Both the position numbers and the translations under genes were made by a program. The notes beneath the pieces were generated by a model. That model was not told where the DNA came from. It was given only the letters and a program-made list of their open reading frames with translations, and did no database searches. Source: Centroscyllium fabricii (lineage: Eukaryota). From it: DNA of 64,000 nt. The stretch spans positions 10,974,001 to 11,038,000 of the forward strand of contig JBNRSN020000010.1 in NCBI GenBank assembly GCA_051313645.2. The letters run 5' to 3'. Positions 19,574-55,444 of the stretch are shown piece after piece; position 1 is the first letter of the stretch, and each line of letters starts with the position of its first letter.

Positions 19574-19652
19574 TGTTTTGGAGATTTTTCTGAACTCTGC
19601 GCTGCTTTACGGTTCCGGCAGGTGTGTTTCTGAGATCTATAAATGGTTCCCC

Positions 19653-19665
19653 TTTATAGACCAAT
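19653..19665 (-). promoter_or_regulatory. Putative TATA box plus CCAAT element of GPCR copy 1
   Basis: Minus-strand TATAAA ~80 nt upstream of the ATG, adjacent to CCAAT; conserved in the paralog at 54326-54338. Confidence 0.5.
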
Positions 19666-20019
19666 CGGCGCCCCGTGAGGTAATAAGGTTGCACAATAAT
19701 TAGTGTTAATTACAGTCACTTAACAAACAAGAGGCGATTTTACACATCACTGCGCATGGGCCGCCACAGAGGAAATTGAACAACTCGGTCCAAGAACATG
19801 AGTCCATTATAATCAAAGAACAGAAAGCAGTCGCTGAGGAAATGGGACTCTGCGCGTGTCCAGTAAACATTGATGGATAATGCAAACATTCCCTCTGACA
19901 CTGGGTTGATTTCTTGGAACCTCATCTTAATTTGCCGAAATGGGCAGCCACCCATCGCATAATTAAATGTTGTTTTGTACTCTGATTGTGATGATGTTGA
20001 ATCGGTTCTCACATTACTG

Positions 20020-23000: not shown

Positions 23001-23540
23001 GATCCTACCCTAACATTACTGGAGGTGAATCCACTGTAACGTAACTGGAGGTGACCCTACCCTAACATTTCTGGTGGTGAATCCACTGTAACATTACTGG
23101 TCTTGCCTCTGCTCTAACATTAATTGTGGTGGACCTTCTCTACCATCACTGGCGATGCCCCTGCTCTAACATTACTGGTGATGGCTCTACTACAACAACT
23201 CATGATGACCGTACTCTAACATTTCTGGTGGTGCCCGTACAATAAAATGACTGGGGGTGATCCGACTACGAAGGTACTGATAGTGACCCTACTTTAACAT
23301 GACTGGAATGACCCTACACTAACATTAATGGATATTACCCTACTGTTCCATAACTAATATAAAATCATATTACTGTTGCTTACTTGGCGCTAAGATTACT
23401 GTACGTGAGGCTAATCTAACATTATTCCTGGTGATCTGATTCTAATATTGCTCGTACAGACACTTCCCAAATGTTAATGCAGGCAACCTTACTCCAAACT
23501 AATGAGTGGTGACACCTCTCTAACATTACTGCTGTTGACA
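20020..23540. repeat. 26-bp minisatellite (CTACTCTAACATTACTGGTGGTGAC[C/T]), interrupted by a CR1
   Basis: Dozens of degenerate units at 20020-20173 and 21090-23540. Confidence 0.92.
20174..21085 (-). mobile_element. 5'-truncated degraded CR1 inserted in the minisatellite
   Basis: LGDWADAWQMQ...QRDVGVLV motifs (ORF 20838-21086); CR1 3'UTR and tail at 20174-20270. Confidence 0.9.
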
Positions 23541-23544
23541 TTTT

Positions 23545-24055
23545 TTAAAATGTGTTCACCGCATGTTCGTGTCGCTGTCATGGCCAAACTTTATTGCCCA
23601 TCTTTAATTACTCTTGAGAATTTGGCGGTAAGCCGCATTCATGAACCGCTTCAGACCATTTGTTGAATCTTTTCCTACAGTGCTGTTAGGGAGGGATTTC
23701 AAAGTTTTTGAGCGAACGACGACAAAGTAACAGCGATATATTTCCATGGCAGTATCGTGTGTAACTTGGAAGAGAACTTGCAGGTGATGGTGTTACCAAT
23801 GAGCCTGCTGCTCTGGTCCATCTAGGTGGCAGACTTTGCAGGAGTCAGCGGCGCTGCCGAGGAAACTTGGCGAGTTGCTGCATTTCATCTTGGACGTGGT
23901 ACCTACTGCAGTCACAATGCGCCGGTGGTGGGGGGAGTGAATGGTTAAAGCGATGTATCGGTCCCAGTCAAGAGGGCTACTTTGTCCTCGATGGTATTGA
24001 GCTTCTTGAGTGTATTGTAGCTGCACTCATCAAGGCAAGTGTCGATTATTCTATT
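23545..24055 (-). mobile_element. 3' fragment of family-B LINE
   Basis: Reverse complement of the family-B 3' end (tttattgcccatc...; HHRRIVTAVGTTSKMKCSNSP). Confidence 0.75.
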
Positions 24056-34526: not shown

Positions 34527-37500
34527 GTTAGTGAGTATAGGAATAGGAGGATAGAGCAGCTTAATACGTGGCTCAAGAGTTGGTGCAGGATGGACTGCTT
34601 TAGTTTCCTGGATAATTGGCCCTGTTTCTGGGAAAGTTGGGACCTGTATAAGCCAGACGGTCTCCACCTTAACCAGAGGGGAACCAATATCCTGGCGGGG
34701 AGGTTTGCTAGCACTGTTGGGGAGGGTTTAAACTAACTTGGCAGGGGGCTGGGATACAAAGTGGAGTAAAAATAGGGGATGACGAAAAGGCAAATATTGA
34801 GGAAAAAACAAGTATGATTAGAAGGCAGAACAAAAGTTCGACACAAGGGAGTAGGGCAAGTTTAAATGGCATTTATTTTAATGCAAGGAGTCTTGCAAAC
34901 AAGGGGGATGAATTGAAGGTGTTGTTAAACACATGGGAGTATGACATTGTTGCCATTACAGAAACATGGCTGAGAGAGGGGCAGGACTGGCAGCTCAATA
35001 TTCCGGGGTATAGAATCTTCAGGAGAGACAGAGTGGATGGAAAAAGAGGAGCGGTGTTGCAGTATTATTCAAAGAATCAATTACTGCTGTAAGAAGGGAT
35101 GACATATTGACTGGGTTCTCTAACGAGGCCATTTGGGTGGAACTTAGAAATAAAACGGGGGCAAGCTCATTACTGGGAGTATATTACAGACCCCCAAACA
35201 GTCAGAGGGAAATAGAGGAACAGATTTGCAGGCAAATCTCGGAGGTGTGAGAAACAATAGGGTAGTAATTTTAGGGGATTTCAACTTCCCCAATATTGAT
35301 TGGGATAGCCAAAGTGGGAAGGGCTTAGAGGGTGCCGAATTCCTAAAGGTCGTTCAGGAGGGCTTTTTGAGCCAATATGTTGAAAGTCCAACAAGGGGGG
35401 GGGGCGGTTTTGGACTTAATCCTGGGGAACGAGGACGGGCAGGTGGTTGAAGTGTCAGTAGTAGAGCATTTTGGGGAGACTGATCACAATTCAGTGATAT
35501 TTAAGGTGGTAATGGAAAAGGACAAAGATGGACCAAAAGTAAAGGTTCTAAATTGGGGCAAGGCTGATTTTAATTTGATAAGGGAGAAATTGGGCAAAGT
35601 GGACTGGGATCAGCTACGCATAGGAAAGTCCGCTTCAGATCACTGCGGGGCGTTCAAAGAAGAAATTGAAAAAGTACAAAGGAAACATGTTCCCCAAAAG
35701 GTCAAGGGTGGGACAAATAAACCCAGGGAGCCTTGGATGTCGAGCGATATATTAAAACTGATTCAGAAGAAAAGAGGGGCTTTTGGAAGGCATAAAGAAC
35801 TGAAGTCCCAGGTGAGTTTAGAGGAATATAGAAGGTGTAGGGGGGTTCTTAACAAAGAAATTAGGAGAGCAAATAGTGGCCATGAGATAACATTAGCGGG
35901 CAACATAAAAGATAATCCCAAGGTGTATTATAAGTGTATTAAGGGTAAACAGATAACGAAGGAAAGTGTGGGACCCATCAGGGACCATAGCGGGAAGCTG
36001 TGTGTGGAGCCAGAAGATGTAGGTGGGGTTTTGAATGAATTTTTTGCATCTGTTTTTACGATGGAGAGGGGCGATACAGACAAAGAAATAGGACAGGAGA
36101 GATGTGATATAATTGATCGTATTAGTATTGACAGAGAGGAGGTAGTAGCGGTTCTAGCTGGCTTAAAAGTAGATAAGTCCCCAGGTCCTGACGAGATGTA
36201 TCCCAGGATGCTGAATGAGGCAAGGGAAGAGATTGCAGGGGCCCTGACACAATTTTTCAGAACCTCTCTTGCAACAGGGGATGTGCCCGAGGACTGGAGG
36301 ATAGCCAATGTTATACCATTATTTAAGAAAGGCAGTAGGGAAAAACCAGGGAACTACAGTCCGGTGAGCCTGATATCGGTGGTGTGGAAGCTACTAGAAA
36401 AAATTCTGAGGGACAAAATCAGTCTTCACTTGGAGAGTCAGGGATTAATTAAGGATAGTCAACATGGCTTTGTCAAGGGAAGATCGTGTCTGACTAATTT
36501 GATTGAATTTTTTGAAGGGGTGACCAAGTATGTGGATGGGGTAGTGCAGTTGATTTGGTCTACATGGACTTTAGTAAGGCTTTTGATAAGGTCCCGCATA
36601 GGAGACTACTCAAGAAGGTAAGAGCCCATGGGATCTAAGGCACCTTGGCACAATGGATCCAAAACTGGCATGGTGACAGAAGGCAGATGGTAATGGTCGA
36701 AGGCTGCTTTTGTGACTGGAGGCCGGTGTCCAGTGGAGTACCGCAGGGATCGGTCCTGGGTCCCTTGCTGTTTGTAATCTATATTAATGATTTGGATATC
36801 AACGTAAAAGGCATGATCAGCAAGTTTGCAGACGACATGAAGATAGGAGGGGTGGTATATAGTGAGGAAGAGATCTGCAGGCTGCAGGGGGATATAGATG
36901 AGCTAGTCAGATGGGCGGAACGGTGGCAAATGGAATTTAACCCTGAAAAGTGCGAAGTGATGCATTTTGGCAGGACTAACATGGAGTGGGAATACACCAT
37001 GAATGGTAGGACTCTAGGGAAGACAGATGATCAGAGGGACCTTGGTGTACAGGTACACAAGTCCTTGAAGGCAGCAGGACAGGTGGGTAGGGGGTCAAGA
37101 AGGCATATCGGATACTTGCCTTCATTAGCAGTGGCATAGAATATAAAAGTAAGGAGGTGATGATGGAACTGTACAAAACATTGGTGAGACCACATCTGGA
37201 GTATTGTGTGCAGTTCTGGTCGCCACACTATAGGAAGAATGTGATAGCTTTGGTGAGGGTGCAGAGGAGATTCACCAGGATGCTGCCGGGGATGGCGAGC
37301 CTCAGCTATGAGGAGAGACTGTACAGGCTGGGGTTGTTTTCTTTGGAGCAGAGGAGGCTGAGAGGGGACCTGATTGAGGTGTACAACATCATGAGGGTAA
37401 TAGATAGGGTCGATGGCGGGGAGCTTTTTCCATTGGTGGAAGGGGCAATAACGAGGGGGCATGGATACAGGGTGAGAGGCAGGAGGTTTTGGAGGGATGT

Positions 37501-38125: not shown

Positions 38126-40046
38126 GTCACAGACGGCAGTCTTCAGTCAATTCGATTCACTCCACCTGGAATCAAGAAATGGAAGAACCCACTGGAAACA
38201 GCAAATGCTGTGATATTCAACAATATCCCGGCGGTCGTGCTGACGACTTGTGCTTGGAGCTATTTGCCCCACCAGAAAAGCTGTTCCAGTACAGCTGCAA
38301 CACTGGCATCAGTGCAGCTGCAATACTGGCATCTGTTCGACAATGTGAAAAAGTGCCCAAATATGTCCTGTTCTCAAAATGCACGACAATCGAATCCGCC
38401 CAGCTACCGCCCGACCCGTCTATTCTCAATAATCTGCGAACTGATGGAAGGTCTCATCGACAGTGCTATCAAGCGACGCTTGCTCTCCAATAACCTGCTC
38501 TCCAATGCTCACTGTAGGTACCGGCAGGACCAATCTGTTGCAGTCATCATTACAGCCTTGGTCGAAACACAGGCAATAGAGATAAATTGGCGAGGTGAGC
38601 TGAGCGTGACTGCTTGTGACATGCAGACAGCATTTGACAGTGGCGGCCTACGCAAAGTGAAGTACATGAGAATCAGGGGGTAATGTATCCACTGGCTGGA
38701 AACAATCCTGCCTAGCACAAAGGAATATCACTGTGGTGGTTGCTGTTCAATCATCCCAACCCCAGGACAACGATGCAGGTGATCTTCAGCTTAATTTCCG
38801 ATGCGCAACGAACGTCAGCTGTTTCAGCAATGACGTTCCATCCATAATAAGTTCAGGAACGGGCTTATTCGCTGATGATTACAGAAATTTCAGTTCCATG
38901 CTAACTCCTCATGTAATGGAGCCGTCCATGCCCGCACGCAGGCAGTCCTGGACGGCATTCAGTCTTGGCTTCATATGTGGCAAGAAACATTCACGCCACA
39001 CAAGTGGCAGGCAGTGATTACTTTAGCAAGAGATAGTTGAAACACTGCCACTTGAAATTCAACGGCATTACCATCACTGAATATCTCACAATCAATGGGG
39101 TCACCACTGAGCAGAAACCTGACTATGATGCGCTGCGCAATATAGTAGATTCATCGCTGCTGCCCAACGTCCCATGACCAACCTTTTCATTATCAATTAC
39201 CCAAACCACCTAGATGCATCTGGCTCAGGGGACTGGCCTGCATGTATTTCTTATTTCAACAGCATTCATTTAAATAGCGCAATTAAATTAATAAAATCCC
39301 CAAGGCGCTTCCAATAGCGTAAGCAGACAAAATGCTAAGGAGCCAAATATGGAGGCACATGGACAGTTGACCAAAAGCTTGATTAGAGCTAGGTTTTGAG
39401 GACAGTCCTAAAGGCGAGGAGAATGGCAGGTTTCAGGGTAATTATTCCTGTATTTAGAACCTATACAACTCAAAGCACAGCAACTAATGTTGGGGCGAAA
39501 AACGTGTAGGATGCACAGGAGGGAAATTTGGCTCATCCTAGAATGTATATTGCGCCGACAAGCTATTTGACAATACAGAAACAGTGGTAGGATTATGTGA
39601 ATTGGTGTAGAGGTAGAGATATGCATCTTAAACATACACGGTAAATCTGATGTTGTGCTTTCGGTTGACGTCGACAAAGAGCAGCATGTGGATGCAAAAT
39701 AAAAGGAACAAAGAGTGTACATTTTGGGGTTAGAGGTAACGGTGCTAGAGTGCAAAGATAATCAATTTCATGATATTCTCTGGTTCATGCTGCATGGGTA
39801 AGTGTGGAAACAGGCGAGGGCAGTTCCACAGAGCTGGAAAATGGAGGAGAGGCGTGGAGATGGATGGTGTTGTCATCCCTGTCAAAGACGTGAAGAATGA
39901 GGATGGATAAGCACCATGGTCACCGTCAAAAAGGCTATCCTTTGTGACTTTGATAAGGGCCGTTTCAAGTGCTGTTCAAAGGCAGAAATTCGATTGTAGG
40001 GAATCGAAAAAAGAATTGTGGGAAAGATGGAAAGGATTTTGGGAGG

Positions 40047-40713
40047 TGTTGGAGTAAATTTTGGATGCTTGGACTAAAAGCTTTAATGGACTCTTTAAAT
40101 TTAAAAGGCATAAGAAACGCCGCCAAAGGGTTAACAGGGTAATACTGAGGACGTGTTGAAGAGAATTAAATAATATACATCTGCAGCATATTCTAGACGG
40201 TTTGAAAACTCCAAGGCTATGGGAACAGATACGAGGAGTGAGCTTCAACTGTGGAAACAGATTAGAAGTTAATTAAAGACGTAAATCAACAAAGGGACAT
40301 AGAGAAACTAACTAAAAACAGAATACAATGGGATCTTAGAAGAAGCTAGGGGGTAGTTGCAGGTGGAAGATAAGGTTAGCTTGTTGACGTAGGTTAGAGG
40401 TTATTGAGTTAATTGGCTAATAATAATGTAATATGCGTAGAAACAATTTATTGATTGGCTTAAGAAAATGTAACGCGCGCAAATGCTTTGAAATATTGTA
40501 AAAAAATGACTAACCGGAGCAGCTATTTTGAGAAAGTGTGACTAGCACTTATCTCCCGGAGCTCTGCTTGAATAAAATATACTCTCGCATTTTGAACAGA
40601 CAATCCGAGTTTCAGTTTTATTACTCTGTGTGATTAGGCTGAGTAGCGTCGATGTTCCTTCACGGTTCGTCCGCCAGGCTTCAGCTAATCAATACATAAA
40701 TTTTCCTACAACA
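40047..40713 (+). repeat. ERV 5' LTR (667 bp)
   Basis: TGTTG...CAACA termini; AATAAA at ~40571; about 18 differences from the 3' LTR by eye. Confidence 0.95.
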
Positions 40714-41030
40714 TCTCCGACGGGCACAATAATCAAGTGCCGGTGGACTCCTTAATTAAAAAGAATCTGAGGAAAGTTTGTGAGAGTATATCTTATTGGG
40801 TTTGGTCTTGGGACTCTCGGGAATAATAAAGCATTGTATGTGTTTTGCATTTATCTCTAACTTTTAAAGAAGCAGGTTAACTAGGGTTAAACCTTCGCGA
40901 TGCTTGGGCAGTCCGGACAACCCCAGGCGGTGATACACGTCGGTAAACGAGGTCACGAAACCGCGGTGACGAACGAGCACAAAGAGGTGGTGAGTGTTTA
41001 CTGGAGAGTGGTCGATAAAACGAACCAAGG

Positions 41031-42394
41031 ATGTGCAGTAAGAAAGTTAAACATGGGCTTCCGGGATCCCTAATTAACACTATATGACAGATAGAAGTTC
41101 GCTAATTGAGAAAATGCAGAAAGACGGATGGGATGTTAGTCAGTCATTAGAAATCCAACGAGCTTGAGTAACTATGCAGAAAAAGGATAAGACAAAGAAA
41201 GCAGGAGTTCTATTAGTCCACCAGCTGGCAGGATTACTTGAGCATGTAGAGAAAATCCGAGAGACTCAGACGGCCAAAACTAAAGTGATTGAAGACAAAA
41301 CTAAACAGTTAGAAGGCAAAACTAAAGAGATAGCAGACTTAACAAAAAAGATAAAAATTTTAGAAGGGATAAATCGAGAACAGTCTAAGGCTCGCAGTGG
41401 AGAATGGCATATGTATGCACCAGGGCCACCCCCGTGCGGACCATCAGCCCCCGTATTAGCGGAAGCTGAAATAGACGAGGAGGCTATGGCCCCCGTTACA
41501 ATAAGTCGGACAGCCGGGGGAGCAGGAAACCCAAAGGGAATATTTAAGCTTTTCACCCCCGGTGAAAGACAACAGATTTTGAAAGATCTAGGATGACTTC
41601 AACCTAGAAGTGCCAATACCAAGTTCTGGGAAAACCTGGATATGGTCGGGCTTGGACATAACCTCCACCTTAAAGATATCCACCAGTTAGTTAGGGCCGC
41701 CTGTCCGGTAGACCGTTGGCGGAACGTGCAGGCAACACAGGCAGTCGCTAATACGGACTATTACACAGGCCGTTGGGCTGACCAATTGCCACTCACGGCG
41801 GACATGCAGGCACAACAGGCACCCTTCCTACTGTTTAAGGCAGAAATACAGCGGGTCTTGTGAGACTCGCCAACAAACTGGAATAGGATAACCGCTACCC
41901 GACAGCAAAAAGTGGAAGAAGCATCTGAGTTTGGGGAAAGGCTATATACTGTTTACAAGGAATCCTCTGGGAACCCAGGGGCAGCAAGAACAGATCCCGC
42001 CTTCCTCCAGGCATATAAAGATGCATTTTCAGAACACCATCAACAGGTAAGTAATATGGGGGTAGTAACCCAGAGAAACTACGATGAACTAGTAGAATGG
42101 GCATGTGGGGTGGATAGTAGGAAGAATAAGGAAAACAGTGAAATTACGAATAAGGTTAAACAAGAGCGGGTGAATGCAACAAAACAAATTGTATCCCTAA
42201 AGGGAGTTTGTCATGGGTGCGGGAAGCCAGGACATTTTATTAAAGATTGTAAGGCTAAGAAAACATGTACCTACTGTACAAAGAATGGACACACCGAATC
42301 AGTGTGTTACAGTAAGCATGGTAGACCAGACGACCGTGCGACTCTGACCCCGGAGGATTTGCAGCTGTTCCAGCAATGGAAGGCTACCCAGTGA
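41031..42394 (+). pseudogene. gag: ERV gag (disrupted)
   Basis: ORFs 41174, 41642 and 41912 share one frame broken by TGA stops. Coiled coil, PPPC/PSAP late-domain-like motifs, and two CCHC knuckles (CHGCGKPGHFIKDC, CTYCTKNGHTESVC). The start is approximate. Confidence 0.88.
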
Positions 42395-45300
42395 CAACCC
42401 ATGGCCCCCATTCAGACAAAAAAAGGAAGGATGTATGTGTCAGCACTAGTAGGGGGCCGACAGTGTGAAATGCTAGTGGACACCGGAGCACCTGTATCAA
42501 TAACTAATCTTCCTCTTCCCATTACTAGCAAAAAGATTTGTATTACCGGAGTAGGAGGAGGAAAAACACCCGCCTTTCTCAGTACAGTACAACTAATACA
42601 GATTGATAAATGGTATATCCCAATGAAATTCTATGTGTGCAAAAATAGTGAAGGGACAATAATGGGGAGTGACCTAATGAAGGAATACCAGGTTTTAATT
42701 GACTGTGGCAACCAAAAATTAGAATGGCCAACCTTAAATGGTCACAAAACTAACTTGCAGTGTTTGGCTAACAATGTGAGTAAGATCGGTGTAGCCACAG
42801 CGATAGTTAGAGACTGGCAGGTGGACTCCAATGGATATGGAGATATTTGTACCTCCGTAGTAGGGATTTGGGCAAAGGACAAGCTGGATACAGGAAAGGT
42901 CAACATGGACCCCATTGTAATTCCGGGACCTGAGCACAAACCCCATAGACAATATCCGATCATGCCAGAAGCCAAAAAGGCGGTGGAGGAGATAGTGAAA
43001 GGAATGGTGCTCCAAGGTATTCTTCGAGAGACCACCAGCACAACCAATTCGCCCACCTGGCCGGTGAAGAAACCAGATAATAGTTATAGGTTCACAATTG
43101 ACTATACAGCCTTAAATAAGGTAACACCAAAACTCCACCCCATAGTGGTTTTGCCCAGCAACCATTTTAAATGGACTGGGTCCGGAACATAAGATATTTT
43201 CGGTTTTAGACATAGCTAACGGATTCTGGGCACTTCCATTGGACCCAGGATCTCAGGAGAAATTTGCCTTCACGGTAGGAGATAAACAGTATACGTGGAC
43301 CCGTTTGCCACAGGGGTTCCACAATAGCCCGGCAATTTTCCACCGGGCAATGAGCAACATCCTGAAGGACATGGAACTCCAGGATGGGAGCACCGTCCTC
43401 CATTATGTGGATGACCTTTTGATTGCGTCAGATACAGCCTCGGAACATGAGAAAGCACTGAAGGCTGTACTGATAGCACTCAGGGATGCAGGATTAAAAG
43501 CAAGCCCCAAGAAAGCGCAGATCGGGAAAACACAGGTCATTTATTTGGGACACCTCATTTCCCAAGGCATAAAAGAGATGCCCACTGACAGGAAGGCTAC
43601 AATACAAAAAATGCCGCAACCGGTAACCATTAGAGGAGTCAGGAAGGTAATGGGACTCTTTAATTACAGTAGAAACTTTATCCCTGAGTTCGCCAAAAAG
43701 GCTGAACCCATTCAACGATTGATAAAAGGAGGGAAGCCCGCTCTGGAACTCATAGAATGGGGTCCAGAACAAGAGCAAGCCTATAATAAATTAAAGCAAG
43801 AGTTAATGTCAGCGCCCGGATTAGAACTAACTGACATGAAAAAACCATTCCATATCCACTGTGATAATGAGGAGGGATTATATGCAGCAGTAGTGACACA
43901 AGAACATGGGAATAAACGCCGACCAGTAGCTTATTACTCCACGGCCGAAGGACCGGTGGTGACAGGACTCTCAAGGTGTGTCGCCACTCTGGACTGCGCA
44001 GCATGGGCAGTTCAAGTATGCAAACCTATCGTAATGAATGGGAGAATAGTCTTACACACCAAACACACTCTGGTGGAAATGCTTAACACGGGAAAGTTAA
44101 GATCAGTCTCCCACATAAGAAGTGCCAAATGGGAGGCGGTGCTGCTATCACCGAATGATTCAATCAGTATCGTAAGGGGTATAGGAGAAAACCCAGCCAC
44201 AGGAATGTTAGGAGCTGGACTTCCCCATAACTGCGGGGAAATAGATGATGAGGAAGCAGATAATAATATAAAGGACAGCCCACTAGAGGGAGCCGAAGAA
44301 ACATTTTATGTAGATGGATCCCGTAAATATATTGACGGACTGCCCCGAACGGGGTGGGCTGTAGTTAATAGTAAGATGGGAGTCAGCAAATCAGGACGAC
44401 TTGACGGAGGGTTATCCGCAAAAGTGGCCGAATTAGTAGCTCTGACCCAGGCGTTAAGAGAAGGAAAGGGTAAGATAGTTAATATCTACACTGACAGTGG
44501 ATATGCCTTTAGTGTAGTACATGACTACATGGTAGCCTGGGGACGCAGGGGTTACATAACGACAGGGGGAGAACCCATTAAACACCAAAAAAGAATAGAA
44601 GCTCTATTGGATGCCAGCAAGGAACCAAGACAAGCAGCAGTTATTAAAATAAAGGCACACCAGAGGGAACCCGACAAAATTAGCCCGGACTGGCAAAATC
44701 ACCAAAGTAACCGGGCTGCAGATGAGGCCGCACAGGCAGCTTTAAATTCAGCAAAAATAAAGGAAGAGCCAGTTAGCAGCCTTGAGCTGGAACCCGCAAA
44801 GGAACCCCAAGTCTGGAAAATTCAGGATGAAGCGCCAGACGCTGAAAAAGAAAAGTGGGTTAAACAGGGAGCTGACCGATGTGCTGCGGATCACGTATGG
44901 CGAAAGGAAGGTAAAGTGGTCGCGCCGGAATGTATACAGCACACTTTGCTGGAAGTACATCATGGTATCTCTCATTCGGGGAGGGAGGCCATGGATAAGT
45001 CATTGTGTAAAGAATGGTGGTGGCATGGGATTGGGAGAGACATTGCCACATTTTGCAGGCAATGTGTAATATGTGCCCAACATAACCCTGGGAAACCCAT
45101 AAAAAATAAAATGGGACACCAGCCGAGGCCCAAGGGACCTTGGGAACACATACAAATTGACTTTAAAGGACACCTGCCCCAGTCACACGGTAAAACCTAT
45201 TGTCTCGTGATAATTGATCAATTCACGAGATGGGTGGAAGCCATTCCAACCCGGAATTGTACTGCCCTAACGGTAGCAAGGATTTTGGCCGAGGAGGTAA

Positions 45301-46001
45301 TTCCGCAGTGAGTAACACCACTACAAATTGATTCCGACCAGGGGACACATTTCATGGGGAGGATTGTGAAGGTTATCTGTCAGTTCATGGGCAATAAACA
45401 AAAATTCCATATCCCATACCACCCCCAAAGCTCCGGAATGGTCGAGAGAATGAATCGGACACTCAAAAATGCCTTGGCAAAGGCAATACAGGAATCAGGG
45501 AAAACATGGGTTGAGGTTTTGCCCATCATTTTGATGGGATTACGGGCAACCTCGAACCGTGCTACGGGGTTAGCTCCCTATGAACACATTACAGGAAGAG
45601 CAATGTAGCTACCGGAGGGCATAATCACTGGTGGGGCAGATGTCGGTCCCTTCAAAGCCCGACTGCGGCGGTACGTCGTAGAATTAAGCGCACAATTAAG
45701 GGAGATGCGTAGGACGGTACGAGACCAGCAGGCGGCAAAAGACGAGGCAATACAGACAATCCTCGCACCCGTGCCGGCTGCTGGTAGCAAGGTTATGGTA
45801 AAAGTCATACCGGCACAGCCGGGGTTTGCACCCAAATGGAACGGACCATATGAGGTTATTATTAGCGGAGATACTTGTGCATGCATGGCGATAAGGGGAA
45901 GGGGGGTTTGGAAACACTGGACTCAGTTGAAGGTGTATGATAAAAGGACAAGTTCAAACGAACCCACTAAAATCAGGGACACTGAAAAGAAAAGCGACTG
46001 A
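42395..46001 (+). pseudogene. pol: ERV pro-pol (PR, RT, tether, RNase H, IN); one frameshift near 43150 and stops at 45309 and 45606
   Basis: LVDTGA; NSPTWPVKKPDNSYRFTIDY; WTRLPQGFHNSP; HYVDD; FYVDGS/AELVAL/YTDS; HHCC zinc finger; IQIDF...DSDQG...GMVERMN; GPY/F motif KWNGPY. Confidence 0.95.
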
Positions 46002-46086
46002 GCGAAACATTAGAAGAATATGTGACACTGTGTTATGATAACTATATTAGCGGAATGTTTTTGTATCTGCTTTACAGATCACCTGA

Positions 46087-46335
46087 ATGTACGATTCCCT
46101 TATTTGTTTGCCCATTTGGGCATTTGTATTTTGGCTAAGTACAACTTTTGTGCTTCTTAGCGTGTATGTTAATGTGTTAATACAAGACTGCTATCATAAA
46201 CGCGCTCGTCAGGCTGAGAGTCAGCCTTTAGTTAGAAGCAATGATGTGGAGATTGATCGGTTTAGCTGTGATTACATGCATTGCTTTGGAGGCACTAGGC
46301 CCCCTGCAGGTCAGGAAGCGAGAACTACATGTTAA
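46087..46335 (+). CDS. Putative ERV accessory ORF, 82 aa, single N-terminal hydrophobic helix, overlapping the env start
   Basis: Intact ATG ORF 10 nt after a pyrimidine-rich acceptor (ttttgtatctgctttacAG, 46076-46077); hydrophobic LICLPIWAFVFWLSTTFVLLSVYVNVLI. Confidence 0.45.
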   Translation: MYDSLICLPIWAFVFWLSTTFVLLSVYVNVLIQDCYHKRARQAESQPLVRSNDVEIDRFSCDYMHCFGGTRPPAGQEARTTC

Positions 46336-47467
46336 CACGTTCTTATATATGTCATACGAGCATGCTAAGGAAAACCAGCGGAGTAGCTGTTGGATTTGTT
46401 CCCACATCCCGGTTCATAGTAAAGGGGGAATTCCACTGAGACCGATTCCCCTCAATCTTACAGAAATCCAACACCACAGGAATAGGGACACCGGAAGGAG
46501 CGATATGTTGGGTGAGAGAGATCAACATTGGGAATGCAAAACATAAGGATAGTACAGCAGTGGGGTATAGTCGATTTAGTCAAAACTGGACGTTACTTAA
46601 TCAGGGATCAATTACGGAACGGTGGTGGTTTAATACCTCCACCTTACAGAATAAAACTGATAATGGAAGATGGAGGGGGAGAGTGAGTTGCACAGGTCAG
46701 TCAGGATTTCCGACCTGGTCACTTCATCTGGAGCTTACTGCCTACAACGGTACATACTTTATATGTGGTAACAAGGCATACCCCTGGCTGCCACCAAATT
46801 GGATTGGATCATGTTATTTGGGATTTGTGGTACCGTATGTGTATCACATTAAATCACTGCTGGGTCACTTCCATCATAAGAGCAAACGAGCAATAACTGA
46901 GACAGAAAGATTTTTTGCTATTCTGTTCCCCATGTATGGAACGACTAGATTAGCAGCAGAAATTAGGAACAACGCTCGAATCCTTGAATAGGTAGCCAAT
47001 GACAATGCGGAAACACTTACGGGAATAAACGCCGAATTGGTAGCAACCAGAACGGTTGCGCTACAGAATAGAATGGCATTAGACTACTTGTTAGCGGAGA
47101 AAGGGGGAACGTGCGCTCTAATTGGACAAGAATGTTGCACGTATATCCCCGACAGTTCAGAGAACGTAACCAATTTGGTAGCTCATATTAGAAAAGAAGT
47201 TAAAGAATTACATCGGGCCCCGCCCCAGTGTGGCTTGACTGGCTAGGGCTCACCGGATGGGGTCCCTGGGTGGCGCATATATTACTCGTGATCATTGCTA
47301 TATGCATTGCCATGTGCTGCTTATTTGCTGTTATTAAAATCTGCTGCAAAGCTGCTATTACACAATTAATGCCTATAAGTGCTGCCGAAATCGATACCCT
47401 GTTGACCGAAGAGGATGAGCAGAAGAAAGAAGACAATGACTGTGTGGATAATAGCCAGTGGCTGTAA
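46241..47467 (+). pseudogene. env: ERV env, gamma-type (disrupted)
   Basis: Signal peptide MMWRLIGLAVITCIALEA; SU CWIC; furin KSKR; fusion peptide; [14 protein letters not shown]; CX6CC (CALIGQECC); TM anchor. Frameshifts near 46510 and 47225, stop at 46989. Confidence 0.92.
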
Positions 47468-47529
47468 GCGTCAGCACTGTGAAGATCGATCGATGGTCAT
47501 CTGGGTCAAGCACGGCCTTGCCCAGAACC

Positions 47530-47540
47530 AAAAGGAGGGA
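47530..47540 (+). other. ERV polypurine tract
   Basis: AAAAGGAGGGA immediately before the 3' LTR. Confidence 0.85.
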
Positions 47541-47541
47541 T

Positions 47542-48207
47542 TGTTGGAGTAAATTTTGGATGCTTGGACTAAAAGCTTTAATGGACTCTTTAAATTTAAA
47601 AGGCATAAGAAACGCCGCCAAAGGGTTAACAGGGTAATACTGAGTACGTTTTAAAGAGAATTAAATATTATACAACTGCAGCATGTTCTAGACGGTTTGA
47701 AAACTCCAAGGCTATGGGAAAAGATACGAGGAGTGAGCTTCAACTGTGGAAACAGATTAGATGTTAATTAAAGACGTAAATCAACAAAGGGACATAGAGA
47801 AACTAACTAAAAACAGAATACAATGGGGTCTTAGAAGAAGCTAGGGGGTAGTTGCAGGTGCAAGATAAGGTTAGCTTGTTGACGTAGGTTAGAGGTTATT
47901 GAGTAAATTGGCTAATAATAATGTAATATGCCTAGAAACAATTTATTGATTGTCTTAAGAAAATGTAACGCGCGCAAATGCTTTGAAATATTGTATAAAA
48001 ATGACTAACCGGAGCAGCTATTTTGAGAAAGTGTGACTAGCACTTATCTCCCGGAGCTCCGCTTGAATAAAATATACTCTCGCATTTTGAACAGACAATC
48101 CGAGTTTGAGTTTTATACTCTGTGTGATTATGCTGAGTAGCGTCGATGTTCCTTCACGGTTCGTCCGCCAGGCTTCAGCTAATCAATACATAAATTTTCC
48201 TACAACA
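47542..48207 (+). repeat. ERV 3' LTR (666 bp)
   Basis: Copy of 40047-40713; retains TATAAAA at ~47994 and AATAAA at ~48066. Confidence 0.95.
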
Positions 48208-48499
48208 GGAGGCGACAATAAATTTAAGTATTTGGACAGCAAAATGATGTTGGAGATGTGGCAGTAGATTGCAATAATCAGCGGGATCAAGGGCTGATTC
48301 GTCAGGGTGGACTAATGGAGACAGATGGGAAAGGGAGGGGGACAGTACCATAGCAGCATTAACCGTTCACAATATCAAAGAGCATGGGGTTAGGAAGATA
48401 AACTAGATAATGAGCTGTTTAGTGGGAATGGGGTTAAGGCAGCAGCAGGAAGTTTTCGGGGACAACACATGCTTGGAGATTACACTGCGGGAAATACGG

Positions 48500-48910
48500 G
48501 AATTCACGGTATCACAGTAAGTGTTTAATTAAGTAACAGGACACAGCAACTAATTAACTAAAATAGACTAAAAGTGTTTTTAGGGGAATAGAACAATGTT
48601 GTACTCATCAGTTGAATAACAGGAGCTATAGGGGCACACAGTAACTGTGTAATTAGCGATAGACGACAGGGTAAGTTAGGGAAACAGTGTAACTTTGAAA
48701 CTTGAGATGGAGAACAGGGTTATTTAGGTCAACACTGTAACTGTGTAATCAGCGATAGATGACGGACAATATAGGGGAACACAGTAAATGTATAGTTAGG
48801 GAAAGCGGAAAGGGAAAGTACGGGGAAACTGTTAACTTTGTATTTGGAAATGGAGGACAGGAGAATCATGGGTAATGCTGTAACTGTTTAATTATAAATG
48901 GGGACCAGGA
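48500..48910. repeat. Shorter paralog of the 48-bp minisatellite
   Basis: acacagtaactgtgtaattagcgatagacgacagggtaagttaggg units. Confidence 0.8.
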
Positions 48911-50099
48911 GAAAACAAAAAAACATTCATTGAGAGCTAGGGCCATGGAAAGATATTACCTCTTTAAAAGGAGATAGAGGGAACAGGAATGAAAGAAGAA
49001 CACACCAAATCTTCAATAAGAATAGCAAAATAGAACGGATGCCGAAAATCTGAAATAACAAATTAAAATGCTGGAAACGCTCAGCAAGTTAGGCCGCGTC
49101 GAGGAGAGCGAAACAGAGTCAATGTTTCGGATCGAACGTTCGTCAGAAATGTAAAAGTTTAGTGAAGAGAGATTTTACGTTCTGGCTATTTAAGTAGAAA
49201 CGAGGGCGGGAATCACACCCATATGGGATGGAATTTGAAAACGTTATGTAACGGTTAGCTTTGCATTCTATTTGAGCTTTTGATTTTGGATGAGGTGGTT
49301 GATTGCATATCACCTTCTCACGATTGTAGCTGGGTGCAGCTGCATCGCATCTGAGTCCGATGCAGTTAAAACATCTGCCTGAATCCTGACTGTTGCGATA
49401 AAAATTATTGGTGGCCTGACTCCAGCTAATTGATAATGGGCCTTTTACACAGAATTACTCTAAACTGCTAATTACTGCCCCAGAATCTGCTTTGCAGCCG
49501 GATTGGAAAAGCCTGGGCTCCACGGAGACATGGAGCCAAGTGCAGATTGGCTTTAGCAGAAGATTCCAGTGGAATTTGAAGGGTTACGGTTAAAGAGGGC
49601 AATTAATCACAGTTAATAAATGAAACTCTTTCAATAATTACAGAAGCTATTGTTAGCGAAGGTTTTCAATTAGGTTCTTGAACATTGAATTGAGGTGACA
49701 GGTATTTAAATCACACAGTATATGCAATAGCAATTAACCATACAATTAAAGGTACAAACTACAATCAAAGCTGCTGCTGTGGTTCTGAACTCAGTATCTT
49801 GGACCATTGCGAATGATCATTGCAAACTTACATTTCCACGGCCTCTTCATATCCGTATCACTTCTCACAAATTTGCATTGTCTAATCATATAGAAGTGCA
49901 AATACAATTCCATATAAGGAAAATGTTCTTAACTCATCTGTGTTTTATGAATAATAATTAACTTTACTTAAAGAGCACGTTTTCCTTTGGGTGACTCATA
50001 TCATTACCTTGGTTCGTAATATTACCAATAATTTCAATCTTGTTCATTAACATACAATTTGGCCAAGTGATTACGTTAATTATAACTATATCTTTATTT

Positions 50100-50455
50100 A
50101 TGTAACATTTGCACCAATAAATACACCAAGGTTCGTTCGAAAGCACCTCAAAAATCTGCGAACTCTACCGTCTAGGAGGACAAGGGCAGCAGGCGCATGG
50201 TAACACGACCATCTCCACTTTCCCCTCTAAGTCACATACCATACTGTCTTGGAAGTATATAGCCGTGTCTTCATCATCGCTGGGTGAAAATCCTGCAACT
50301 CACTCGCTAACAGCACTTTAGGAGTACGTTCACCACAGGTACTGCAGCAGTTCAAATGTGCAGCTTACCAGCACGTTTGCATGGGTAATTAGGATTGGCC
50401 AATAAAGGTTGGCCTTGCCAGCTAAGCACACATCCCATGCATGAACAAAATAAAT
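50100..50455 (+). mobile_element. 3' end of family-B LINE (paralog of 15805-16167)
   Basis: ggacaagggcagcaggcgcatgg...cacatcccatgcatgaacaaaa. Confidence 0.75.
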
Positions 50456-50540
50456 GTTGATGGCAATCCAGGTGTTTTCCTTTTCATAATTAACAGATTC
50501 CCAACACTGCTATTAAATGTTTAAATTTCTCTGAAATGTC

Positions 50541-50952
50541 CGGCGGCACGGTGGCACAGTAGTTAGCACTGTTGTCTCACAGCACTGGAGACCCGGGTTC
50601 AAATCCAACCTCGGGTACCATTTGTGTGGAATTTGCACATTCTCCCCGTGTCTGCGTGGGTTTCCTCCGGGTGCTCCGGTTTCCTCCCACAGTCCAAAGA
50701 TGTGGGAGTTAGGTTGATTGCCCATGATAAATTGACCCTTAGTGTTAGGGGGATAGAATATGTGGGGTTACGGGGATAGGGTGGGATATGTGACGATGCA
50801 GGCTCGATAGGGATCGAGGGATATGGGGAGAGGGCAGGGGGGGAATACTGATTTTGGATGATCAGCCTTGATCTCATTGAATGGTGGAGCAGGCTCGAAG
50901 GGCCGAATGGCCTACACCTGCTACTAGTTTCTATGTTTCTATGTTTCTATGT
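50541..50952 (+). mobile_element. Full-length HE1/V-type SINE
   Basis: A box (TGGCACAGTAG), B box (GGTTCAAATCC), V-domain, CR1-derived tail (TTTCTATG)3, and flanking ATGTC repeat. Absent from the paralogous site near 16230. Confidence 0.92.
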
Positions 50953-52532
50953 CATTTTACAATGACATGCCATTAAATACGTTTAATCTTTATCCATCGT
51001 GAATCTGACCAATGCTTCAGGGTGAGTCCTGGACCATCTGCACAGTGTTTCTTTAAATTGTCTGCTTAACATGCAAAGCTTGAAAGTTAGCATTACTACA
51101 ATATCAAGATAAACTAATACAGTATAATTTTAGCAGACAACATGACCGTCTGCTTATTCCTTCAGACCAAGTTGCCTCTGTCGTAGCATTAGTGTATTAA
51201 GGTAGCATTAAACTACATCTCATCAGAAACGTACATCTACCGCGGTCTATACTTTTTCGCATTGATTTTACACATTCATCTCTGCAGAGCCACATGAACT
51301 TGTTATATTAGTGATGTTTGCAGCAGGTTTGTCCGTGTCTTAGACCTGTTCGCCCTAGCATCTTCAGCATGCATATCTCAAGCTAGTTCCTTCGATCATA
51401 ACACGTCACTTCTGCACAAAGTGATAATCCAAGATCATGCAGCACCATAAATCGTACACAAAACATGTCTGCCCTTTCTGTCAATCTATCGAGAGATCGG
51501 CGAGTGGGGGCGGATTCTTTAGGAGTTATATTTCAAGCTATCAACTATATTTTTCTCAATATTCAGTTTAAGCAAGAACATAACCATATCCAGCGGAAAG
51601 ATTTCAATTAAACATCTTAAATAAAATGTATTGACTTTCACTAGATTGTGCATTGATTGCAGACATATATCTTTTGGCAAATAGTGCCAATGTGACTTAA
51701 GTTAACAAGGGATGGGCAAACATAGATAGAAGGAGATTGTTTCCGTTTTTTGAGGATCAAAAACTTACTGCCATAGTTAATAGTTTATTATGGAAGAGAT
51801 TTAGAAATGAGTGTATGATTACCTTATTTAAATGAAGAACTTTGAGGCTATGGATTGGATATATCAATGAATAAAAATAGGTTGATGGGATAGTGATATA
51901 AGGCGGGTAAAGATAATTGAAATATTTTCTCGGGTGCAGTATAAACACGGACTCGGTCTGTTCGGGTAAAATTATCTGTTCCTCTGTTATCAATTCTACG
52001 ACATTCTGATGATCAGTTTCGGATTTGGTAGACATCTGTGCCAAAGATGTCTGATGTCACATAGACAAGTCAAGTTGCTACTCTCTACATCATTAGACAC
52101 TGATCAGGAGATAGGGCCCCGTTCTATTAGTCCAGGAGACCATGGGGGGCGAAGCCTGATGGGGAGACCAGCACCTGCAACATTCAAACCGAGATTACAG
52201 AATTACAGATAGCCAGCATTATATTTCCTTGTGTCCGCACTAATGGAAACTTCAACTGTTAATTAAACTGGGGCGTCTCATTCCAGTAACTGCGGTGTGA
52301 GGCAGTTAAATTTGAAGCCCACATGTTCTACTTCACTGCTGAAGCTCAGACATGACTGTTCTTTTTGAATCCTGAGCGGGAAATGCGCTGTTTTAGGAAA
52401 AATCGATTTTGTTCAGAAAAGCAGACATCAGACCCACGGCACAAAGCGAGACAAATGTTTCCTGTTTATTATTGAAATTTTCATAAAAGCAAAGCATGTT
52501 ATTTGAACTCCAATTTGGACAGGAATCGTTTT

Positions 52533-54246
52533 TTATTTTTGCAATTTTTTGCAAGTAATTGTCCAAGGAAGTTTTGTCGCCTGCTTTAGCTGTTCCCTGA
52601 ATTTAGTTTGTGTAGCTGCATAAATACATGTGTTTGTACACGAACTCAAATACATGAGCATATATCCGGTTTCAGCGGCAATATAGGCAGGGGCTGCATA
52701 ATCGCCTCGGTAATGCACGGTGCTTGTCACACTAGCAGCTAAATTAGTAACGCAAGTTGTCAGCCACAACAGTATAAAACTGGCGGATACACTGAACAGT
52801 AAAATGATTGATTTCCTTCGGCTCACCATCTCTGGATCGCTCTGATTCTCACTGCTGTGACCCCGGAGTCCCCTGCGCGCTCTATTGGCAACTAAAATAC
52901 GTCTGGCTGTCAAACAATTAAACATTAATATCAAAGCAAAACTAAGCCAAGAAAAACAAATGCGACGTAACCAGGAAAACATCACTCCTATAGGCGATGA
53001 AAAGAACTCCACACTGGAGCGGCAACCCCAGTGAACATTGTTAAATGTTCGCTCAGGTTCAAATGCAAACCAAAACACGAGGCTCTGTAAACAGATCAGG
53101 ACAGAGACGGTAGTTAAAACTGCGGCCGCAATTCTCAATGTGCAATACTTTGTTTTAAACCCCTTACAACATATAGCTACAAATCGGTCAAATGTGAATG
53201 AGACTGTGAACCATACCGACAAATGCAAGGCGACACATTGCACGTATATAATGATCTTGCAAACGGCAGTGTAGGACAGGAAGGAATGTGGAAAGTGATA
53301 ACGTAAAATGCGGTTCACTAATATATTGAAGATCATGACCAGTAGATCTGCTGTTGCCATGGCCACCATATAGAGGGAAATACATTTGGAAAGGCCGCAG
53401 TTTCCTCTGGAGAGAATCACGATTGTCAGTAGGTTCGCTGAAAGAAGGAGGTAAAAATGATCAATAACGGAATATTCAGAAAAATGTCACAGCTTATTTA
53501 GGGACATTTTCGGATATGTCACTATTCAGCGTTATGCGCACGGATTTTATTATGTAAGCGAGTGTAAAGACATTTTAATTATAGTACTAAAACCACTGAA
53601 CATTCAATATCGAGTAGATGAAATATGCCGTACGTCCAGCAAACTTCAGTCAAGTATGAAATATAGTTACATGTCAATTAATGGAAAGATATAATTAAAA
53701 TAAAACATTCAACTCCGGTAAAGACTAATCATATTATACTAAAATGCTGCGTAGAGGAGGGGAGCACATTCCTGAGCGGATATTATTTCATAAAATAACT
53801 TTCAAAATACCCTCTTGGGTGGAATTTCCGCAATCCGCGGAATTATCAACTAAATGTAGAAAGGGAACAACGGCTCAAATTACGTGATTACAATGGGCAG
53901 TGAGCAACATATTCTTAATAGGCTTTGTGTTGTTGGAGGTGCCGGGTAACACGCCTCTTTCCCCCTGAATTTACTGATGAACATTGAGTGCCCGATGCCC
54001 GCGACCTAGAGACCAGAAAAGCGCCTCAGCGATCGCGCCGACAGCAAAGATTTCAGCTGATTTTCACCGACTGATCCCGGTGAATAAACAATTCTGCAAT
54101 GTGGACAATCCCAGAATCTGTTACATTAACACTGAGATATTGAACAGCTATTAGGCAACAGGTAACATTGTCTTACCAGGAATGCCAAATGCTGCGAGGA
54201 CATGGTAGTAATCGTCCCGTATCTGTAGAAATATTGGCCGTACCAT
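52533..54246 (-). CDS. GPR139-like orphan class A GPCR, intact, 324 aa (exon 1 54177-54246, exon 2 52533-53437)
   Basis: MVRPIFLQIRDDYYHVLAAFGIP|ANLLTIVILSRGNCGLSKC...; canonical GT-AG phase-1 intron; 975-nt CDS without stops; seven hydrophobic segments; MATADL, FDRF, KYCT, SRRKSIILL and SSCTNTCIY motifs. Confidence 0.9.
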
Positions 54247-54325
54247 TGTTTTGAAGATTTCTGTGAGCTCTGCACAGCTTTACGATTCCGACTTTAGTGT
54301 TTCTGAGATCCGTAAATCTTTGCAA

Positions 54326-54338
54326 TTTATAGACCAAT
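54326..54338 (-). promoter_or_regulatory. Putative TATA box plus CCAAT element of GPCR copy 2
   Basis: TTTATAGACCAAT conserved with 19653-19665 at the same distance from the ATG. Confidence 0.5.
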
Positions 54339-54679
54339 TGGCGGCTCAGTGAGATCATCAGTTTGCACTGTAATTGGTGTTAGTTTCAGTCGCTTAACAA
54401 ACAAGGGATAATTTTCCGGTTCAGTGAGCCTGGGTCGCCAATGGGGAATTGGACAGCTCAGTCCATGAAACTCCACCCATTAAAATCAATGAGCGAAACG
54501 TAATCCCAGAGGAAATGGGCTCAGCGCATGTCCAGTAAACCATAAAGGATAAAGTAAACGAGCCACCGTACGCTGCCTTGATTTCTTGAAACCTCATCTT
54601 AATTTGGTCAAATCGTCACTCCTCCATTGCAATTATTAAATGTTGTTTTCTACTTTGATTAAGAATGATTTTGAATCGT

Positions 54680-55440
54680 CTCTAACAGTACTGAAGGTGA
54701 CCATACACTAACCTTTTGAAGGTCACCCTATTCTAACATTACCGGTGGTCAACCTACTCTAACATACCGGTGGTGGCGCTTATCTAACAAAACTGGTGCT
54801 GATTGCTGCTTAACAGTACTGTTGGTGAGTGCTATCTAAAATTACTGCTGATGACAGTCTCTTAACAATACTGATGGTGTTCCTGATCTGCCGTTACTGG
54901 TGGTGACTATACTCTAACATTACTGGCAATGAGACTGCTGTGACATTACTGCCGGTGGCCCTACTCTAACATTACTGGACGTGACTGTACTACAATATTA
55001 CTGGTGGTGACTGAACTCTACCTTTACTGGTGGTGATTATACTCTAATATTGCTTGGGCTGACCCTACACTAACGTTACCGGTGATGACACTAATCCAAC
55101 AAACTGATGATGGCCCTACACTAAGATTGCTGGTTGTGACTGTACACTAACATGACTGAGGTTGATCCTACTCAATTATTACTCATGGTGACCTTACTTT
55201 TCGAGTATGGGTGGCCTTCGTTTAATTAATACCTATGCCCCAATGTCACATTATTGCTATTGACTCTACGATGATATTATTGGTGCCTACGGTGCTGCAA
55301 TATTACTGTAGGTGACCCTAATCCAATATTATTTTTGGTTTTCGGATGTAATATTGCTGGTAGTGATTCTTCTCAAATGTTACAGCTGGTAACGATATTA
55401 TCATCTAATGGGTGCTGACATCTCTCTACCATTACTTCTG
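54680..55440. repeat. 26-bp minisatellite paralog
   Basis: ctactctaacattactggtggtgac units, about 0.75 kb. Confidence 0.88.
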
Positions 55441-55444
55441 TTGA

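What the first reader, a model, noticed from the sequence alone, without database searches (positions are those of the whole stretch)
40047..48207. Full-length ERV with class III/snakehead-like pol, gamma-type env and two-knuckle gag
Seen: complete provirus with 5-bp TSD, two CCHC knuckles, RT motifs NSPTWPVKKPDNSYRFTIDY and FSVLDIANGFW, and env with CWIC, ISD and CX6CC. Known: NSPxWPV..P.GS.R.T.DY motifs and 5-bp TSDs typify class III (ERV-L/spumavirus-related) elements, while CXXC/CX6CC env is gamma-type; snakehead retrovirus has such a combination. Inference: this is a relatively recent member of a poorly described chondrichthyan retroviral lineage. About 18 LTR differences in ~667 bp (~2.7%, counted by eye) and few ORF lesions mean a consensus could be rebuilt.
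Basis: partly seen in the sequence, partly recalled or inferred. Interest (0 to 1): 0.75.

Follow-up and report, generated by a model that had tools for sequence, protein, structure and literature searches.

The report
Dead shark provirus, deep retroviral branch
This is a complete but broken retrovirus fossil, likely tens of millions of years old and likely in a shark, from a little-studied branch already sampled in whale sharks and turtles, which likely made its enzymes by reading through a stop codon helped by a predicted RNA stem.

Summary
The anatomy is confirmed: an 8,161-bp provirus with 667/666-bp LTRs (17 substitutions, 1 indel), a 5-bp TSD, two CCHC knuckles, the quoted RT motifs and a gamma-type env. 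Gag, pol and env are all broken (at least 9 lesions).

In two trees RT lies outside the gamma+epsilon crown and is not sister to SnRV, though that sisterhood is not rejected (AU p=0.10). Zinc knuckles and a GPY motif exclude ERV3/ERV-L and ERV4. Xu et al. 2018 already hold relatives (whale shark ERV4, turtle ERVs), listed in their SnRV-related clade Huo. The lineage is therefore neither new nor chondrichthyan-only. At shark mutation rates the insertion is probably over 19 Myr old, not recent. The env resembles that of an elephant-shark ERV with a different pol, fitting known env swapping.

One addition: gag and pro are in frame across a UGA that is invariant in sister copies. It is followed by an 8-nt spacer and a 7-bp stem also seen in whale shark ERV4, a candidate readthrough signal. 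The scan had not noted this sequence before; two notes describe other shark ERVs with F-like env.

The parts
40042..40046 (+). left target-site duplication GGAGG
40047..40713 (+). 5' LTR (667 nt, TGT...ACA; AATAAA at 40571)
40714..41077 (+). leader; primer-binding site not recognisable; candidate splice donor GT at 40990
   Evidence: motif match only
41078..42394 (+). gag, broken by stops at 41165, 41594, 41861; start uncertain; heptad-rich N-terminal part; two CCHC knuckles at 42209-42250 and 42266-42307
   Evidence: (homology to Heterodontus P0141 in all four pieces)
42392..42458 (+). gag-pro junction: in-frame UGA (42392-94), 8-nt spacer, predicted 7-bp stem 42403-42409 / 42452-42458; inferred readthrough signal
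42395..46001 (+). pro-pol: protease (DTG 42479), RT (YVDD 43404), tether, RNase H, integrase with GPY motif; frameshift within 43146-43190, stops at 45309 and 45606; no dUTPase hit
46055..46077 (+). candidate env splice acceptor (pyrimidine tract, AG at 46076-77)
   Evidence: motif match only
46087..46335 (+). 82-codon hydrophobic ORF overlapping the env start; no homolog found, possibly chance
46241..47467 (+). gamma-type env: signal peptide, basic site RKR 46313, N-terminal CWIC 46388, furin site KSKR 46878, ISD 47061, CX6CC 47112, membrane anchor about 47279-47335; two frameshifts and one stop
47530..47540 (+). polypurine tract
47542..48207 (+). 3' LTR (666 nt)
48208..48212 (+). right target-site duplication GGAGG

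Best explanation
This is a full-length, defective provirus of a simple retrovirus, likely integrated in a shark germ line tens of millions of years ago, whose RT falls outside the gamma+epsilon crown in a lineage that likely includes the published whale shark ERV4 and turtle ERVs, and which likely made Gag-Pol by UGA readthrough and Env from a predicted spliced RNA. [quoted passage not shown] Inferred: host identity, age, readthrough, the role of the stem, splicing, and that env was exchanged between pol lineages. The locus cannot replicate on its own.
For: Closest Pol hits are the Mustelus asterias cluster (67-70%), Pristiophorus (63%), unnamed P0104 (58%), the Anguilla cluster (45%) and Pimephales (44%). 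Trees of 55 rows (LG+G4) and 34 rows (LG+C20) both give window + Mustelus + P0104 + Heterodontus (100/99, 100/98), joined by Pimephales + P0170 (98/95, 99/96), outside a class I crown (100/99, 98/99). Xu 2018 S2 Data entries rh_ty_ERV4, ch_my_ERV12, ch_pi_ERV20 and ma_te_ERV13 carry the same RT motifs. By eye over one 66-residue RT stretch, identity is 80% to ch_my_ERV12 and 71% to rh_ty_ERV4. Their tips stand in the block labelled Clade Huo in S2 Fig. Readthrough: no variant at 5% or more was listed at 42377-42426 in 4 of 4 runs, with contigs bridging the stop in 2 of 4. More divergent contigs keep the spacer but not the AUG at 42401. Whale shark ERV4 has UGA-CGG in frame, no AUG before the protease, the same spacer length and the same stem with one G-U pair (by eye). 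UGA junctions are known in SSSV, ZFERV and XtERV-S. Env: 54% to P0309, 66% by eye over 73 TM residues to elephant-shark CmiERV scaffold 2, and 29-38% to mouse gamma-type TM.
Against: My trees lack ERV-L, foamy and class II rows and are rooted on distant gypsy RTs. They put the lineage on the class I stem (96/92, 97/91), whereas the published tree lists its relatives in clade Huo, so the deep position is unsettled. The link to Xu's entries and their clade was read by eye from truncated supplements and from tip order, not computed. The junction region folds no better than shuffles (z +0.6 to +1.2), and the stem's 3' arm codes for conserved protease glycines. The host species was not determined. 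The age rests on assumed rates, and the LTR differences are oddly rich in transversions (13 of 17), so sequence errors could inflate it.
Confidence: 0.8

Rival explanations
1. It is a true close relative of snakehead retrovirus (sister lineage).
For: It shares WPVxKPD, TIDY, LDIxNGFW, WTRLPQGFH and GLFN motifs with the SnRV RT row. A tree holding the window clade with SnRV is not rejected (AU p=0.0985). Its Gag has a heptad-rich N-terminal part, and SnRV Gag has a coiled coil. Relatives are listed in clade Huo.
Against: RT-thumb-tether identity to SnRV (P0191) is 34%, no higher than to WEHV1 (33%) or MDEV (35%); RNase H is 32% to SnRV against 41-43% to class I. Both best trees separate them. 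A clade with SnRV plus the amphibian/coelacanth group is rejected (p=0.0009). SnRV has one knuckle, a UAG junction, accessory ORFs and a 136-residue Env tail; this element has two knuckles, UGA and a short tail.
Confidence: 0.15
2. It is an ordinary class I (ERV1, epsilon-like) fish ERV whose RT motifs only look class III-like.
For: The best PDB match is MLV RT (324 bits against 142 for foamy). It has knuckles, a GPY motif, gamma-type env and in-frame gag-pol. My trees place it on the class I stem.
Against: It is outside the gamma+epsilon crown in both trees. Union with the WEHV1 pair is rejected (p=0.003). The TSD is 5 bp where ERV1 generally makes 4 bp. The published tree lists its relatives outside clades Jin and Mu.
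Confidence: 0.1
3. Pol is not made by readthrough: the UGA is a lesion of this copy, or Pol starts at its own AUG (42401) on a separate RNA, as in foamy viruses.
For: An AUG lies two codons after the stop, and this copy has many other stops.
Against: The stop region shows no variant in sister-copy contigs. The AUG is absent from more divergent contigs and from whale shark ERV4. The close Pol homologs P0042, P0097 and P0104 begin in the protease, and none of the 40 hits of 1263 residues or more exceeds 35% identity.
Confidence: 0.1

Closest known systems
Rh_ty_ERV4 (whale shark) and turtle ERVs Ch_my_ERV12, Ch_pi_ERV20, Ma_te_ERV13, Pe_si_ERV12 of Xu et al. 2018 (PMC6001957, clade Huo)
   Same: Same RT motif set (71-80% over a 66-residue stretch, by eye). 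Rh_ty_ERV4 shows the end of one CCHC knuckle plus a complete second one, a similar Gag end, an in-frame UGA-C and the same spacer and stem.
   Different: A different family and host. Their env, TSD and LTRs could not be seen because the supplement text is cut at 400 characters per record.
Annotated shark Pol-like proteins: Mustelus asterias XP_078069418.1, Heterodontus francisci XP_067870587.1, Pristiophorus japonicus
   Same: Same clade with full support; the Heterodontus Gag is homologous and has two knuckles.
   Different: Named only 'uncharacterized' or 'NYNRIN-like'; 55-73% identical in RT, so separate families.
CmiERV lineage I (elephant shark scaffold 2; Han 2015, PMC4422223)
   Same: Shark-type host, SnRV-related RT, very similar gamma-type env with an N-terminal CXXC (TM 66% by eye), in-frame UGA-CA junction, similar LTR divergence (0.033).
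   Different: RT is more distant (58% in the same 66-residue stretch, by eye) and resembles the amphibian/coelacanth group. I read one knuckle, and it has an intact TGG-type PBS.
Snakehead retrovirus (SnRV)
   Same: RT motifs, in-frame gag-pol, heptad-rich Gag.
   Different: Only 34% RT identity; one knuckle; UAG junction; complex genome and long Env tail; its env type was not confirmed.
XtERV-S (PMC8278194) and ERV-SA.a-Ppe (bioRxiv 2021.11.23.469661)
   Same: Non-class-I pol with a gamma-type env, N-terminal CWIC; for XtERV-S also an in-frame TGA, TGT...ACA ends and a 5-bp TSD in related copies.
   Different: XtERV-S is ERV-L-like: no knuckle, YIDD, dUTPase. These show that the pol/env combination is already described.

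Membership tests
Orthoretrovirus-type ERV (Retroviridae) | PR-RT-tether-RNase H-IN order plus env between LTRs | tested here: met
ERV3/ERV-L and ERV4 (Chong 2014, Table 1) | 5-bp TSD | tested here: met
ERV3/ERV-L and ERV4 (Chong 2014, Table 1) | no zinc knuckle in Gag | tested here: not met
   two CCHC motifs
ERV3/ERV-L and ERV4 (Chong 2014, Table 1) | no GPY/F motif after integrase | tested here: not met
   PKWNGPY at 45831-45851
ERV3/ERV-L | dUTPase after integrase (lost in some lineages) | tested here: not met
   no Pfam hit at E<=0.1
ERV3/ERV-L, spumaviruses | RT groups with ERV-L or foamy viruses | not testable with these tools
   no ERV-L or foamy protein among the fetched sequences; PDB score 142 bits to foamy against 324 to MLV
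Class I crown (gamma + epsilon, ERV1) | RT nested among gamma/epsilon retroviruses | tested here: not met
   AU p=0.003 for union with the WEHV1 pair
Class I crown (ERV1) | 4-bp TSD (general rule) | tested here: not met
   5 bp
Class I crown (ERV1) | 1-2 knuckles, GPY/F motif, in-frame gag-pol stop | tested here: met
SnRV-like (sister to SnRV) | RT monophyly with SnRV | tested here: inconclusive
   not recovered in either tree; not rejected, p=0.0985; wider SnRV + amphibian/coelacanth clade rejected, p=0.0009
SnRV-like (sister to SnRV) | accessory ORFs and long Env tail | tested here: not met
   tail about 40 residues, no 3' ORF between env and LTR; one unsupported 82-codon ORF
Clade Huo (Xu 2018) | RT groups with Huo members such as Rh_ty_ERV4 and Ch_my_ERV12 | tested here: inconclusive
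   motif and identity match by eye and tip order in S2 Fig; those sequences were not in my tree
Gamma-type Env | CXXC in SU, furin site, ISD, CX6CC, membrane anchor | tested here: met
   definition from PMC9967133 passages
Lokiretroviruses | F-protein-like env and no second RNase H (recalled, not from a call) | tested here: not met
   TLV_coat env; tether plus RNase H both present

The most novel reading that the evidence does not exclude
This shark-turtle-teleost lineage is the stem group of class I retroviruses, and it expresses Gag-Pol through a conserved UGA-C + 8-nt spacer + single long-loop GC stem. That stem occupies the same protease-coding positions as stem 2 of the gammaretroviral pseudoknot, so it would be a simpler, undescribed form of the retroviral readthrough signal.
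Probability: 0.3. Interest if true: 0.62.

Novelty: new member of a known kind. Interest (0 to 1): 0.36.

Why it matters
It gives a fully bounded example (TSD, both LTRs, two-knuckle gag, env) of a retroviral branch known mainly from RT trees and unnamed gene models. It mixes class III-like traits (5-bp TSD, RT motifs) with class I traits (knuckles, GPY, gamma-type env), which bears on where class I retroviruses came from. A 2026 review (PMC13517186) says readthrough in epsilonretroviruses is not experimentally verified and its cis-elements are unclear, and lists only hexanucleotides for SSSV, ZFERV and SnRV. The conserved UGA-spacer-stem seen here is a small, directly testable candidate. Otherwise it is one more dead fish ERV with a swapped env, a pattern already in print.

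Tried and rejected
No whole genome is held for this window, so copy number and orthologous sites were not measured. Viral-contig scans found no relative (0 confirmed of 3 and of 60 pattern matches). The metagenome scan gave 57 loci at only 31-42% identity; those examined are gamma-type and none is a close relative. No RNA holder was listed among 11 runs; this is no evidence on expression. A contig joint from 39996 to 48228 in 2 of 4 runs could be an empty site or another LINE copy, so it was not used. The paralogous unit in the window matches only the right flank, so it gives no empty site. The AlphaFold model of Pol had mean pLDDT 48 and was not searched. Atlas searches for the env piece and the 82-codon ORF gave no usable hit. 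Pfam did not confirm the LINE identity of the flanks (0 of 7 translations); the L2-like reading is a recalled resemblance. A TMV-type CARYYA signal was considered and rejected: the hexamer after the stop matches 5 of 6 positions. Whole-region folding was no better than shuffles. The stem test against 1,153 pol codons (0 hits) used a rule defined after seeing the stem, so it is weak. The primer tRNA was not identified. No TM tree was built: only one close env (P0309) was retrieved among 184 candidates. Paper searches found no description of this family; subscription papers and bioRxiv supplements (Chen et al. name families in 6 cartilaginous fish) were not visible and may hold it.
Full report
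Observation. The element runs from 40047 to 48207, begins TGT and ends ACA, and is flanked by GGAGG on both sides. On the minus strand the two flanks read as one continuous LINE-like RT frame if a single TSD copy is counted (by eye; Pfam gave no hit, so the L2 label is recalled). All quoted motifs are at the stated places. Pfam finds protease, RT, tether, RNase H, integrase and TLV_coat. A polypurine tract precedes the 3' LTR, but no TGG-type primer-binding site follows the 5' LTR. The copy is dead: three stops in gag, one frameshift and two stops in pol, two frameshifts and one stop in env. The first env break coincides with the absence of about 50-60 residues present in P0309.

Relatives. 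The 721-residue unbroken Pol ORF finds a Mustelus asterias cluster at 67-70%, Pristiophorus at 63%, unnamed P0104 at 58%, an Anguilla cluster at 45% and Pimephales at 44%. The profile search adds Heterodontus at 53%, whose Gag matches all four window gag pieces and has two knuckles. In four sequencing runs, 1,047 to 3,335 contig records lay on the element at mixed identity. It therefore belongs to a multi-copy family; the depths give no copy number. A shark host is inferred from these hits and agrees with unchecked notes on this genome.

Phylogeny. P0191 matches the SnRV RT row printed in a supplement of PMC10435555, and P0164 is WEHV1. Trees used RT-thumb-tether from the unbroken ORF and a hand-picked subset of the 308 fetched proteins: 55 rows and 34 rows with a mixture model, rooted on gypsy RTs. 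Both give a supported clade of window, Mustelus, P0104, Heterodontus, Pimephales and P0170. The clade lies outside a supported gamma+epsilon crown and branches after SnRV, on the class I stem (96/92, 97/91). AU tests on the 34-row set: with the WEHV1 pair rejected (p=0.003); with SnRV plus the amphibian/coelacanth group rejected (p=0.0009); with SnRV alone not rejected (p=0.0985). RT identity is 34% to SnRV, 33% to WEHV1 and 35% to MDEV. No ERV-L, foamy or class II rows were available, which limits the deep placement.

It has been sampled before. The S2 Data of Xu et al. 2018 (PMC6001957; parts 1-2 of 5 of the text, S2 Fig whole, S2 Data as passages cut at 400 characters) contains rh_ty_ERV4, ch_my_ERV12, ch_pi_ERV20 and ma_te_ERV13 with the same RT motifs. 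By eye over one 66-residue stretch the window is 80% identical to ch_my_ERV12 and 71% to rh_ty_ERV4. These tips stand in the block labelled Clade Huo, the SnRV-related clade. Cyprinid ERVs of PMC10435555 (supplement passages and results part 1) match the Pimephales branch. By the table in PMC4299795 (passages and one section), ERV3 and ERV4 have 5-bp TSDs but no knuckles and no GPY/F, while ERV1 has 4-bp TSDs. This element fits neither and falls among the unclassified SnRV/Ovex1-type intermediates that the paper mentions.

Env. CWIC lies near the N-terminus of SU, as in XtERV-S and SYNC2. The SU-TM piece is 54% identical to P0309, and TM is 29-38% identical to mouse gamma-type TM. By eye TM is 66% identical over 73 residues to CmiERV scaffold 2 of Han 2015 (text part 1 of 2 and supplement part 1 of 3), whose RT is only 58% identical in the 66-residue stretch. 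TM closer than RT core suggests env exchange. Chen et al. (bioRxiv 2021.11.23.469661, parts 1-3 of 6) report this as common in anamniotes, including class III pol with gamma-type env, and XtERV-S (PMC8278194, part 2 of 8 and passages) is another case. I found no passage stating that SnRV's own env is gamma-type. Two unchecked notes describe SnRV-related shark ERVs with F-like env instead.

How it worked. Gag and pro share a frame across UGA at 42392. In sister-copy contigs no variant at 5% or more was listed from 42377 to 42426 in 4 of 4 runs, with bridging contigs in 2. More divergent contigs keep the spacer but not the AUG two codons downstream. Eight bases after the stop a 7-bp GC stem is predicted (42403-09 with 42452-58, pair probability 0.85), although the region folds no better than shuffles. 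The start of the published rh_ty_ERV4 sequence shows, by eye, UGA-CGG in frame, no AUG, an 8-nt spacer and the same stem with one G-U pair and a 45-nt loop against 42 here. CmiERV scaffold 2 has a similar geometry with a differently placed 3' arm. In mouse gamma-type loci the matching VGG codons pair with the proline-rich arm, which I take from recall to be pseudoknot stem 2. The review PMC13517186 (passages) lists UGA junctions for SSSV and ZFERV and UAG for SnRV. It says UGACGG readthrough in VEEV and CTFV needs a downstream extended stem-loop, and that epsilonretroviral cis-elements are unclear. Readthrough is therefore likely (about 0.85) and a role for the stem plausible (about 0.45); the 3' arm also codes for conserved glycines. 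Env from a spliced RNA (donor 40990, acceptor 46077) is inferred from motifs only.

Age. K=0.026 gives 59 Myr (34-93) at the 2.2e-10 per year assumed by Han, and 6 Myr at a mammalian rate. The epaulette shark rate of 7e-10 per generation (PMC10587355 passages) implies more than about 19 Myr for any generation time over a year. 'Relatively recent' is not supported, with the caveat that the transversion excess (13 of 17) may include sequence errors.

Other papers seen: PMC4977317, PMC12193657, PMC2717909, PMC9967133, PMC3758190 and bioRxiv 2024.03.17.585361 as passages only. The scan's own index had no look-alike for this Pol.

Verdict. A real, well-bounded, dead provirus and a new member of a known, thinly described retroviral branch with a known kind of pol/env mosaic. 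The gag-pro readthrough element is the one point that may be new. Interest 0.36.

Noticed in passing
window:63645-64000: Start of a second, diverged LTR related to the provirus LTR (68-72% over the first 100-130 nt, about 90% over a 43-nt block), with no polypurine tract before it; it runs off the window end. A sister family or solo LTR.
   Followed up: partly
window:52533-53486 (-) and 17856-18746 (-): Single-exon rhodopsin-family GPCR ORF (7tm_1, 317 codons) with a 78% identical paralogue, inside an old tandem duplication of about 34.7-kb spacing (13430-24054 against 48217-55952). The provirus sits just before the second unit.
   Followed up: partly
window:40047-40713 against 47542-48207: LTR differences are 13 transversions to 4 transitions, whereas family-level differences in run X1 are 65% transitions (p=0.0006 under that share; p=0.28 under no bias). 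Unexplained: mutation spectrum or sequence error.
   Followed up: partly
window:46087-46335: 82-codon ORF with a hydrophobic N-terminal stretch, starting 10 nt after the candidate splice acceptor and overlapping the env start in another frame; no homolog found.
   Followed up: partly
window:46313-46321 and P0309: Env has a basic RKR site right after the signal peptide. P0309 has the matching site with about 90 extra residues in front of it, so this env group may gain or lose a cleavable N-terminal domain.
   Followed up: no
window:41898-43394, 46334-47194, 43902-44085: Contigs in up to 4 of 4 runs join across these stretches, suggesting internally deleted members of the family.
   Followed up: no
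window:21098-23331 and 54680-55198; 13847-14552 and 48627-48892: Diverged 26-bp and 48-bp minisatellite arrays, each present in both units of the duplication.
   Followed up: no
window:948-2609 (-) and 35371-36621 (+): Long LINE reverse-transcriptase ORF remnants (CR1-like by recalled motifs).
   Followed up: no
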